A DNA stretch of 64,000 nt from the NCBI GenBank assembly GCA_000004695.1, contig CM000152.2, positions 4,928,001 to 4,992,000 on the forward strand, given 5' to 3'. The notes under the pieces were generated by a model. The model ran no database searches. It was not told where the DNA came from and worked only from the letters and a program-made list of their open reading frames with translations. Source of the DNA: Dictyostelium discoideum (Eukaryota). Position numbers and translations under genes: made by a program. Shown piece after piece: positions 35,446 to 37,153 of this stretch. How positions within the stretch are numbered: the stretch's first letter is position 1; each line of letters begins with the position of its first letter.

Positions 35446-37153
35446 TTATGGTAATAGTTTTAAAGATTTATTAATTCTATTAAGTTTTTTCATTTTTCTA
35501 CAATTAAAAATCCAAGAAATTATGAAAGCAGTTAGAAAGATTAAAAACATAGAAAGTACCCCACAAAAGTAAGATAAAAGATTTTCCCTAAGTTCGTTCC
35601 ATTGTTTGGCAGTATCACTTGGAGTTTGACATGATTCGGCCAAATCAGTGAATGACGAATCACCATAGAAATTTGTATTTGCTTCATCACAAACAATTAG
35701 TTGGAAATCATTGGTACTTGATGGTGCAAATACAAATTGATTATTGTTGGCAATTACGTCTGATAAGAGAGAATTTATAATCGATGTACCATTTGAAAAA
35801 ATACGATTTGAAAATAAATAAATATTAGACATCTGAGGGCTGAAGAGTCCAACATTACCATGGAGGTTACCTTCTTTGGTGTTAAAATCACTAGAAACAT
35901 ATAAATCAATAGTACTATTTTCAAAGTATGCAAAGGTACTAATTAAGGTTATAACATCCATTATCACACCACTACTATAGTTAAGCTCAACATTGAATTG
36001 ATTTGCATTCAAAAGAGAATTAACAGAATAAATTAGTGATCTTGAACCATCAAATTCTCCAGAAATACTAACTTGGTTTAATGAAACACGACAATTGGAA
36101 AATCTAAGAAAAAAGGAATATATACTTCCATAATATTTTGTATTAATAATTGATACATTATTCATTGTAAAACTACCTGCAGTAATTGAGGCAATTGAAC
36201 TTCCACGATAAATTAAAAAAGAGTTGAAAATTGTATTTGAGATTGTTAAGTCAATTATAGGACCAAAATCATAATTAAGTACAAATGGGACATTATTATT
36301 GACATTGGTGATGTTATTTGAACCAAAATTGCAATTGTTTAAGATGAATGAAATATTGATATTATCATTTGGATATTGTTCACCAAAAAAGTATTGTGTT
36401 ACCATTTTCATTTCTAAATCTTGACTTGATTCATCATTTTTTAACAATTTAGAGGAATCCATTGATAATGGTTTTTTAATTCCATGATTTTTTAAATCAT
36501 TTGATTCACTACTAATTCTTGAATTACCTGAGAGTGAAAAATATGGAGAATAAAGAGATTCACATAAAAAATTTACATTTTCAATATCAACATTTAAAAA
36601 TGCATTTACACCTATATAACCTTGGAAAAAACAACCAGACTCTGAAACATTTAAAGAGTTACATCCAGAGATTGTTACATATCTAATCATAATGTTTGTA
36701 GGAACAATACTAGTTGCTTTATATGGATATTCGACAATGAATATTGGTGATACTGTACCATTTATATTTGGAACTAAAAATTGTACCAAATCATTTGAAT
36801 TTTGGGCACTAATAGAAATATTCAAACCATATAAATTTATTGGATTTTGAGAATAATAATTTCCTGAATCCAATAAAATTTCAATTGAATATTGATTATA
36901 TTCATAGGATTTGATTTGTTGAATTGAATAACCAATTGTTTTTCTAAAAAAAAAAAAAAAAAAAAAAATTAATTAATTATATATCATTACCAATAAATTA
37001 TTATCATTTTTTATTTATATATACTTACCATGGAGATGTAAAACTACCACAAGAGTTATTATCATTACCACTATTGGAAATGTATTTTGAGAATTGTATG
37101 TTACCAAAAGTTGAATTTATTAAAAGGAAAATTAAAAGTATTAAGTATTTCAT
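35446..37153 (-). CDS. Type I membrane glycoprotein with beta-helix-like N-x-S/T-rich repeats. This is paralog 1. Exons: join(37153..37029, 36943..35446). The junction codon reads TGA (see findings).
   Basis: Exon 1 reads MKYLILLIFLLINSTFGNIQFSKYISNSGNDNNSCGSFTSP plus TG, followed by a GTAAGT donor. Exon 2 reads (A)KTIGYSIQQIKSYEYNQYSIEILLDSGNYYSQNPINLYGLNISI... A C-terminal TM segment (LLSYFCGVLSMFLIFLTAFIISWIF) and a basic tail follow. It is homologous throughout to 37873..39936. Confidence 0.6.

What the first reader, a model, noticed from the sequence alone, without database searches (positions are those of the whole stretch)
36943..37030. In-frame TGA created at the exon 1/exon 2 junction of glycoprotein paralog 1, where paralog 2 has TGT (Cys)
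Both paralogs end exon 1 with ...CCA TG followed by a GTAAGT donor. Paralog 2 resumes with T (TGT, Cys, then KSIEYVINQIKSY...). Paralog 1 resumes with A (TGA, then KTIGYSIQQIKSY...), and there is no alternative acceptor in its 85-nt intron. The rest of paralog 1 (475 codons) is intact, including the TM segment. The options are a very recent nonsense pseudogene, a sequencing error, stop-codon read-through, or, far less likely, selenocysteine at a Cys-homologous position.
Basis: seen in the sequence. Interest (0 to 1): 0.5.

Follow-up and report, generated by a model that had tools for sequence, protein, structure and literature searches.

The report
Stop codon private to AX4 reference
The in-frame TGA is really in this sequence, but a near-identical second assembly and every relative read TGT or TGC (cysteine) there, so it is most likely a reference base error or a lab-age null mutation, not selenocysteine or read-through.

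Summary
The window is Dictyostelium discoideum AX4. Paralog 1 is DDB_G0281817 and paralog 2 is DDB_G0281781. In detail: exon 1 ends ...CCA TG, an 85-nt GTAAGT...TAG intron follows, and exon 2 starts with A at 36943, giving TGA. Paralog 2 has TGT.

The A is private to the AX4 reference. A second D. discoideum assembly (GCA_054883475.1), inferred to be lab strain AX2-214, reads T there. It is otherwise base-for-base identical over 12.6 kb, including the rest of this gene and its 3' UTR. Three wild relatives read TGT, TGT and TGC. Cys42 is invariant in all seven homologues.

There is no SECIS. Rfam finds nothing at E<=10, the 317-nt 3' region has no AUGA, and its fold z-score is -0.24. No GT-AG pair rescues the frame without deleting at least 26 conserved residues. 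The official AX4 protein (502 aa, MFKK...) avoids the stop with an 11-nt upstream mini-exon and loses the signal peptide.

Verdict: a single T-to-A difference. It is most likely a reference base-call error (about 0.68). Otherwise it is a nonsense mutation that arose in the Ax3/Ax4 lineage after about 1967 (about 0.27). Recoding is effectively excluded. Interest is low, but the AX4 gene model needs correcting.

The parts
36943..36943 (-). The discrepant base. It is the first base of exon 2 and the third base of split codon 42 (TG at 37030..37029 plus this base). The AX4 reference reads A (TGA). The second D. discoideum assembly and the orthologues read T or C (TGT/TGC, Cys).
37029..37153 (-). 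True exon 1 of DDB_G0281817. It encodes the signal peptide and the first part of the conserved CG-x5-PC motif (MKYLILLIFLLINSTFG...SCGSFTSP + TG).
   Evidence: The same exon is used in the gene models of four other assemblies.
36944..37028 (-). 85-nt intron, GTAAGT...T23-AG. It has no internal alternative acceptor.
35446..36943 (-). Exon 2: 498 sense codons plus TAA. It encodes a predicted right-handed beta-helix ectodomain with 12 N-glycosylation sequons, a C-terminal transmembrane helix and a short basic tail. Apart from base 36943 it is identical to the second assembly.
35129..35445 (-). 3' UTR/intergenic spacer up to the stop of the convergent cyclase gene. About 90% A+T, no AUGA, no SECIS-like fold.
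37638..37648 (-). 11-nt mini-exon (ATGTTTAAAAA|GT) used by the official AX4 model (XP_640637.1, MFKK-KTIGY...). It bypasses the TGA and drops the signal peptide, so it is an annotation artefact.
37873..39936 (-). Paralog 2, DDB_G0281781. Exon 1 is 39936..39806, the intron is 39805..39605, and exon 2 is 39604..37873. The same split codon reads TGT (Cys).

Best explanation
The TGA is not a recoding signal. It is a single T-to-A difference (minus strand) at the first base of exon 2 of DDB_G0281817, and it exists only in the 2005 AX4 reference sequence. It most likely comes from a base-call or consensus error. The base sits two positions after the intron's T23 run and turns TAAAA into AAAAA. The real gene then encodes a 540-aa type I membrane glycoprotein with Cys42 in a conserved CG-x5-PC-x-[TS]-I motif at the N-terminal cap of a predicted parallel beta-helix. 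Gene prediction on the faulty base then produced the artificial MFKK... model. Shown: the A is private and derived, there is no SECIS, and no splice rescue exists. Inferred: that the cause is a reference error rather than a true AX4 mutation, and that the second assembly is strain AX2-214.
For: (1) Assembly GCA_054883475.1 encodes P0007 (540 aa), which equals the AX4 conceptual protein with C at position 42. Its DNA reads ...TTTTAG|TAAAACA. (2) Between window 43121 and 30527 (12.6 kb, four genes) this is the only difference between the two assemblies. No other coding difference was seen across the roughly 38 kb compared. (3) L001 and L002 read TGT and L003 (D. citrinum) reads TGC. C35 and C42 are invariant in seven homologues down to 27-30% identity. 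(4) Ax2 and Ax3/4 descend independently from clone DdB, selected by 1967 (PMC2643946). The nuclear mutation rate is 2.9e-11 per site per generation (PMC3466296). My arithmetic from these, assuming at most about 7e4 generations summed over the two lineages, gives well under 0.1 real single-base differences in the region compared. Yet more than 80 substitution discrepancies are seen, so almost all AX4/AX2 discrepancies must be sequence errors in one assembly or the other. At 36943 the T is corroborated by three further genomes. (5) Published AX4 resequencing work treats recurrent differences from the reference as reference errors or stock differences (PMC3466296, PMC5052037).
Against: No AX4 reads or cDNA could be examined, so a true nonsense mutation in the sequenced Ax4 stock is not excluded. 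The other AX4/AX2 discrepancies are clustered in AT-rich intergenic DNA, and I could not tell which assembly is wrong there. The reference error rate inside coding sequence is therefore not measured: 0 other discrepancies in roughly 25 kb of coding DNA. That the second assembly is AX2-214 is inferred from the paper and from sequence identity, not from an accession-to-strain table.
Confidence: 0.68

Rival explanations
1. The A is a real nonsense mutation that arose in the Ax3/Ax4 laboratory lineage after its separation from Ax2 (since about 1967). DDB_G0281817 is then a decades-old null allele in AX4. Translation stops after 41 residues, essentially the signal peptide plus 24 residues, and the next in-frame ATG (codon 127) would give a protein without a signal peptide.
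For: The A is derived and absent from the near-isogenic assembly and all relatives. The rest of the gene shows no further lesions and is identical to the second assembly, as expected for a very young lesion. The gene belongs to a tiny, fast-evolving, probably dispensable family: 5 hits in 1.8 billion representatives, and dN/dS of 0.68 against the nearest wild isolate. Strain-specific pseudogenes of surface-protein genes are described in AX4 (bioRxiv 10.1101/2025.10.22.684067).
Against: Given the measured mutation rate and the strain history, a real difference in this 1.6-kb gene has an expectation of about 0.003 by my arithmetic from PMC3466296 and PMC2643946. From my own knowledge, Ax3 was isolated after nitrosoguanidine treatment, which mainly gives G:C to A:T transitions, not a T:A to A:T transversion. 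Discrepancies caused by sequence error are far more frequent in this comparison.
Confidence: 0.27
2. The UGA is real and is decoded as selenocysteine at a Cys-homologous position.
For: D. discoideum has the Sec machinery and five selenoproteins (PMC2375036). The UGA aligns with an invariant Cys.
Against: No SECIS was found. Rfam gives nothing at gathering score in the window and nothing at E<=10 in 34000..38000. The 317-nt 3' region has no AUGA, and its fold z-score is -0.24. The Dictyostelium-type UGUA-AUGA signature is absent on this strand until 31562, inside another gene. The 3' UTR is identical in the assembly that encodes Cys, so AX4 has gained no SECIS. All relatives use Cys. Relaxed genome-wide SECIS searches and 75Se labelling found no further selenoproteins (PMC2375036).
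Confidence: 0.01
3. The UGA is real, but full-length or near full-length protein is still made, either by stop-codon read-through or by a cryptic acceptor. One example is the natural donor joined to tatttctattag|T at 36808, which recreates TGT.
For: One GT-AG combination with the natural donor restores TGT and the frame. Basal near-cognate read-through of UGA occurs in eukaryotes (general knowledge).
Against: The context is UGA-A-AA, not the leaky UGA-C/CUAG type (sequence, plus general knowledge). The stop is not conserved in any relative. Every frame-restoring splice deletes 26 to 75 conserved residues and uses exonic cryptic sites; the 36808 acceptor deletes 45 residues.
Confidence: 0.03
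4. The AX4 reference is right for the whole NC4 lineage, and the T in the second assembly is that assembly's own error or a reversion.
For: The second assembly is Nanopore-based and systematically shortens long homopolymers.
Against: An error would have to recreate exactly the ancestral, codon-conserving base found in three other genomes. The assemblies were Illumina-polished (PMC12745789). The intron's T run has the same length in both assemblies.
Confidence: 0.01

Closest known systems
Eukaryotic selenoprotein genes with Cys-containing homologues (in D. discoideum: SPS2, SelK, Sep15, MSP, deiodinase-like; PMC2375036)
   Same: An in-frame UGA aligned with a conserved Cys, in an organism that has Sec-tRNA and the insertion machinery.
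   Different: There is no SECIS in the 3' UTR. The UGA is absent from a near-isogenic strain and from all orthologues. The Cys lies in a structural CG-x5-PC cap motif of an extracellular beta-helix, not in a redox motif.
Reference-genome base errors that create spurious in-frame stops, followed by compensating gene-model artefacts
   Same: A single-base discrepancy next to a homopolymer, contradicted by an independent assembly of the same lineage. The automated model invents an 11-nt first exon and a 694-nt intron to keep an ORF.
   Different: Not yet proven with AX4 reads.
Strain-specific nonsense alleles or young pseudogenes of surface-protein genes in AX4 (e.g. tgr pseudogenes; bioRxiv 10.1101/2025.10.22.684067, PMC12745789)
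   Same: A fast-evolving, tandemly duplicated cell-surface glycoprotein gene with a premature stop in the reference strain and an intact ORF in other strains.
   Different: Here the sister lab strain is intact and identical everywhere else. A real lesion would therefore be only decades old, not a natural polymorphism.
Right-handed parallel beta-helix (pectin-lyase-like) proteins: polygalacturonases, AlgE4, phage tailspikes, PfbA adhesin
   Same: The AlphaFold model (pLDDT 69.9, pTM 0.70) matches only this fold class. From my own recollection of such proteins, the N-terminal G-x-D...P-C-x-T-I motif resembles their usual cap.
   Different: No Pfam family matches. TM-scores are only 0.2-0.5 and sequence identity is about 10%. 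It is anchored by a C-terminal transmembrane helix. No catalytic residues were assessed.

Membership tests
Eukaryotic selenoprotein gene (UGA = Sec) | In-frame UGA at a position occupied by Cys in homologues | tested here: met
   TGA at codon 42; C42 invariant in 7 homologues
Eukaryotic selenoprotein gene (UGA = Sec) | SECIS element (AUGA...AA...GA kink-turn hairpin) in the 3' UTR | tested here: not met
   Rfam: no SECIS even at E<=10; no AUGA in 35129..35445; z = -0.24; no UGUA-AUGA type motif. No positive control on a known Dictyostelium SECIS was run.
Eukaryotic selenoprotein gene (UGA = Sec) | UGA (or Cys/Sec alternation together with a SECIS) conserved in close relatives | tested here: not met
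   TGT in the near-isogenic assembly and two wild relatives, TGC in D. citrinum. The 3' UTR is identical in the Cys-encoding assembly.
Eukaryotic selenoprotein gene (UGA = Sec) | Host has Sec-tRNA, SBP2 and eEFSec | not tested
   Taken from the literature only: PMC2375036 reports Sec-tRNA and five selenoproteins in D. discoideum.
Eukaryotic selenoprotein gene (UGA = Sec) | Selenium incorporation shown by 75Se labelling or mass spectrometry | not testable with these tools
   PMC2375036 saw only bands attributable to known selenoproteins.
Programmed stop-codon read-through | Leaky stop context (UGA followed by C or CUAG) and/or a stimulatory downstream structure | tested here: not met
   the context is UGA AAA ACA. 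Downstream structure was not examined.
Programmed stop-codon read-through | Stop codon conserved across relatives, with a conserved coding sequence downstream | tested here: not met
   the relatives have a sense codon.
Reference sequencing or consensus error | Contradicted by an independent assembly of the same lineage while the flanks are identical | tested here: met
   the only difference in 12.6 kb and the only coding difference in about 38 kb
Reference sequencing or consensus error | Raw reads of the reference strain disagree with the reference base | not testable with these tools
   Logan look-ups for five ORF or protein variants found no read-based contig over the site.
Strain-specific nonsense pseudogene | Derived premature stop relative to orthologues | tested here: met
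   TGT to TGA polarised by two outgroups
Strain-specific nonsense pseudogene | Stop confirmed in independent sequence of the same strain | not testable with these tools
   Only one AX4 sequence is available here.
Strain-specific nonsense pseudogene | Relaxed constraint or further lesions downstream of the stop | tested here: not met
   downstream sequence identical to the intact allele; the N:S ratio on the AX4/AX2 branch (27:11) is no higher than on the wild-isolate branch (40:14).

The most novel reading that the evidence does not exclude
AX4 truly carries UGA at codon 42, and the codon is decoded, either as Sec without a recognisable SECIS or by efficient near-cognate read-through. The cell would still make the full-length glycoprotein.
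Probability: 0.01. Interest if true: 0.6.

Novelty: not a real feature. Interest (0 to 1): 0.07.

Why it matters
There is little biological significance here: no recoding, no new selenoprotein. The practical value is curation. The AX4 reference base at window 36943 and the DDB_G0281817 / XP_640637.1 / Q54TF4 model should be rechecked. That model is 502 aa, has an artificial MFKK start and lacks the signal peptide. The likely true product is the 540-aa secreted, membrane-anchored protein annotated in the newer assembly (KAM9950343.1). If the A proves real, AX4 and AX2 differ by a null allele of a surface glycoprotein, which is a minor caveat when comparing the two strains.

Tried and rejected
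(1) Selenocysteine. I ran Rfam at gathering and at E<=10, regex scans for generic and Dictyostelium-type SECIS cores, and a fold of the 3' region. All were negative. The only AUGA within 700 nt downstream (35096) lies antisense inside the convergent cyclase exon. By eye it lacks a 3' GA partner.

(2) Alternative splicing. I enumerated all GT/AG pairs. Twenty-five combinations keep the frame, and all delete 26 to 75 conserved residues.

(3) Pseudogene decay test. Pairwise dN/dS and parsimony branch counts show no AX4-specific relaxation. This became moot once the second assembly proved identical.

(4) Independent read-based evidence. Logan look-ups of the 475-, 459-, 414- and 42-aa ORFs found nothing, and the look-up of the 540-aa protein returned only the NCBI contig.

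(5) Family assignment. Pfam gave no hit. Single-sequence AlphaFold gave pLDDT 39.7 and was unusable. An exhaustive HMMER search found only 5 relatives.

(6) Literature. No paper mentions DDB_G0281817. The supplement of PMC12745789 is not held, so the accession-to-strain link was not verified. The 2005 genome paper is not held.

(7) A positive control of the Rfam SECIS models on a known Dictyostelium selenoprotein locus was not run.

Full report
IDENTITY OF THE REGION. The window is 14-37% G+C. Its proteins match Dictyostelium discoideum AX4 at 100% identity. Paralog 1 is DDB_G0281817 and paralog 2 is DDB_G0281781. They lie in tandem on the minus strand. A convergent cyclase gene (Pfam Guanylate_cyc) ends at 35128.

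THE OBSERVATION. On the minus strand, paralog 1 starts at ATG 37153 and exon 1 ends ...TCT CCA TG at 37029. The intron, 37028..36944, is 85 nt: GTAAGT...T23-AG. Exon 2 starts at 36943 with A AAA ACA ATT GGT. The spliced frame is 1623 nt and reads ...SCGSFTSP*KTIGYSIQQIKSY.... It stays open for 498 further codons to TAA at 35446. Paralog 2 ends exon 1 ...CCA TG|GTAAGT at 39806 and resumes at 39604 with T AAA TCA ATT GAA, giving TGT = Cys. The intron holds no internal acceptor.

HOW THE DATABASES HANDLE IT. The official AX4 protein is XP_640637.1 / Q54TF4, 502 aa, and begins MFKK-KTIGY. That N-terminus comes from an 11-nt mini-exon, ATGTTTAAAAA|GT at 37648..37638. It is spliced over the real exon 1 to the same acceptor. 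The model sidesteps the TGA and discards the signal peptide, so it is an annotation artefact.

RELATIVES. Three newer assemblies carry full-length orthologues of 537-538 aa. These are D. discoideum ACTFIW (89% identity), D. cf. discoideum (83%) and D. citrinum (68%). All have the same exon 1 and Cys at the junction. Their DNA reads TG|...AG|T, TG|...AG|T and TG|...AG|C. A 27-30%-identical homologue, P0008, also keeps ...SPCQTI.... C35 and C42 are invariant. Parsimony with two outgroups polarises the change as TGT to TGA on the AX4 side.

THE DECISIVE COMPARISON. The 90% cluster of the AX4 protein has a second member, KAM9950343.1 (P0007, 540 aa). It comes from D. discoideum assembly GCA_054883475.1, chromosome CM142509.1. 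It equals the AX4 conceptual translation with Cys at position 42. Its DNA reads ...TTTTTAG|TAAAACAATTGG.

I aligned 21.7 kb plus 23 kb of that chromosome to the window. The two assemblies are 99.5-99.7% identical. Their differences are of two kinds. The first is homopolymer length, with the new assembly shorter. The second is clusters of substitutions in AT-rich intergenic DNA, at 61098-61424, 62275-62417, 59275-59291, 46918-46974, 29022-29056 and 25403-25752.

Between 43121 and 30527 (12.6 kb, four genes) the single difference is 36943. It is also the only coding difference in the roughly 38 kb compared. The 3' UTR of paralog 1 is identical in both assemblies.

WHICH STRAIN IS THE SECOND ASSEMBLY? 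Holland et al. 2025 (PMC12745789) deposited Nanopore plus Illumina assemblies under PRJNA1300491. These cover the lab strain AX2-214 and nine diverged wild isolates, including D. citrinum and cryptic discoideum-like species. They report 99.5% AX4/AX2 identity at the tgrBC locus. The contiguous locus-tag series (ACTFIT...ACTFIZ), the species names and the near-identity to AX4 all point the same way. I therefore infer, without accession-level proof, that this assembly is AX2-214. Ax2 and Ax3/Ax4 were derived independently from clone DdB of NC4, selected by 1967 (PMC2643946).

ERROR OR REAL MUTATION? The nuclear mutation rate is 2.9e-11 per site per generation (PMC3466296). Even tens of thousands of generations in each lineage give about 2e-6 differences per site. 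That is under 0.1 expected in the region compared and about 0.003 in this gene (my arithmetic). Yet more than 80 substitution discrepancies are observed. Nearly all AX4/AX2 discrepancies must therefore be sequence errors in one assembly or the other.

At 36943 the T is backed by three further genomes and by codon conservation, so if there is an error it lies in the AX4 reference. The base sits two positions after the T23 run and extends an A4 run to A5. Resequencing studies of AX4 routinely discard recurrent differences as reference errors or stock differences.

Against this, I could not determine which assembly is wrong in the intergenic clusters. Coding DNA is otherwise discrepancy-free, so the coding error rate is not measured. 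No AX4 reads could be reached. I put reference error at about 0.68 and a true lab-age Ax3/Ax4 nonsense mutation at about 0.27.

RECODING IS EXCLUDED FOR PRACTICAL PURPOSES. D. discoideum does have Sec machinery and five selenoproteins. Their SECIS elements share a UGUA-AUGA signature, and relaxed searches and 75Se labelling found no further selenoproteins (PMC2375036). At this locus:
- Rfam finds no SECIS at gathering score in the window, nor at E<=10 in 34000..38000.
- The 317-nt 3' region has no AUGA and folds no better than shuffles, z = -0.24.
- The Dictyostelium-type signature is absent on this strand until 31562, inside another gene.
- The identical 3' UTR serves a Cys-encoding allele in the sister strain.

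Read-through lacks a leaky context (UGA-A) and the stop is not conserved. Of 25 frame-keeping GT-AG combinations, all remove 26 to 75 conserved residues. One of them, the natural donor joined to the acceptor at 36808, would recreate TGT but delete 45 residues.

NO DECAY. Pairwise dN/dS is 0.68 for AX4 against the nearest wild isolate and 0.27-0.37 for deeper pairs. Substitutions split N27:S11 on the AX4/AX2 side and N40:S14 on the wild-isolate side. There is thus no AX4-specific relaxation, and all those changes are shared with the intact allele of the second assembly.

WHAT THE GENE ENCODES. The product has a signal peptide, an ectodomain with 12 N-x-S/T sequons and 11 Cys, a C-terminal transmembrane helix and a basic tail. 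No Pfam family matches. An exhaustive HMMER search of 1.8 billion representatives found only 5 relatives. An AlphaFold model built from a 7-sequence alignment (pLDDT 69.9, pTM 0.70) matches only right-handed parallel beta-helix proteins. These include polygalacturonases, AlgE4, phage tailspikes, chondroitinase B and the PfbA adhesin, at E down to 9e-5 and TM-scores of 0.2-0.5. Cys42 lies in the CG-x5-PC-x-[TS]-I segment that precedes the model's first helix. A structural role, probably a disulfide with C35, is an inference.

VERDICT. The finding is real in the sequence and ordinary in biology. It is a single-base state private to the AX4 reference, most likely an error and otherwise a decades-old null allele. 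Its useful consequence is a correction to the AX4 base and gene model.

Noticed in passing
window 1179..1311 (+) and 1738..1873 (-): Two divergently oriented U4 spliceosomal snRNA genes (Rfam RF00015, 52.6 and 64.2 bits), about 430 bp apart.
   Followed up: no
window 61098..61424, 62275..62417, 59275..59291, 46918..46974, 47216/47269, 29022..29056, 25403..25752: Dense clusters of substitutions between the AX4 reference and the second D. discoideum assembly, up to about 40 in 330 bp. All are in AT-rich non-coding DNA next to long homopolymers. They are far too many to be real AX2/AX4 mutations, so one assembly is locally wrong. Which one was not determined.
   Followed up: partly
window 35863..35868 (-): An in-frame 6-nt insertion (AAC CTC; Asn401-Leu402) in paralog 1. 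It is shared by AX4 and the second assembly but absent from the two wild discoideum-clade isolates and D. citrinum.
   Followed up: no
window 35446..37153 versus L001 6001..7715: Paralog 1 evolves fast within the discoideum clade. dN/dS is 0.68 against the nearest wild isolate and 0.27-0.37 in deeper comparisons, on both branches. This could reflect relaxed or diversifying selection on a surface protein, or it could be noise from small counts.
   Followed up: partly
window about 38600..39000 (-), paralog 2: Paralog 2 carries a long Ser/Glu/Tyr-rich repeat (SESYSSE...) that paralog 1 lacks. Its length differs between AX4 and the wild isolate. The wild isolate's model (P0006) also lacks part of the transmembrane/tail segment, probably a gene-model problem.
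   Followed up: no
window 39605..39805 (-): The 201-nt intron of paralog 2 ends with an A-rich tract (about A20 then CAAAAG) instead of the usual T-rich tract before the acceptor.
   Followed up: no
window 18861 and 19480; L006-L008: Three read-based Logan contigs (SRR26869267, SRR28564543, SRR26869268) share the same two single-base differences from the AX4 reference within 1.5 kb. One is synonymous, in a Fuz_longin-domain ORF. This is either another strain or further reference errors.
   Followed up: partly
L004 20783..21618 (window 25475..26320): In the second assembly, the gene model for the LSM-domain protein starts with a dubious exon that reaches 4 nt (ATGG) before the first GT, far upstream. 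The conserved LSM coding part is identical in both assemblies.
   Followed up: no
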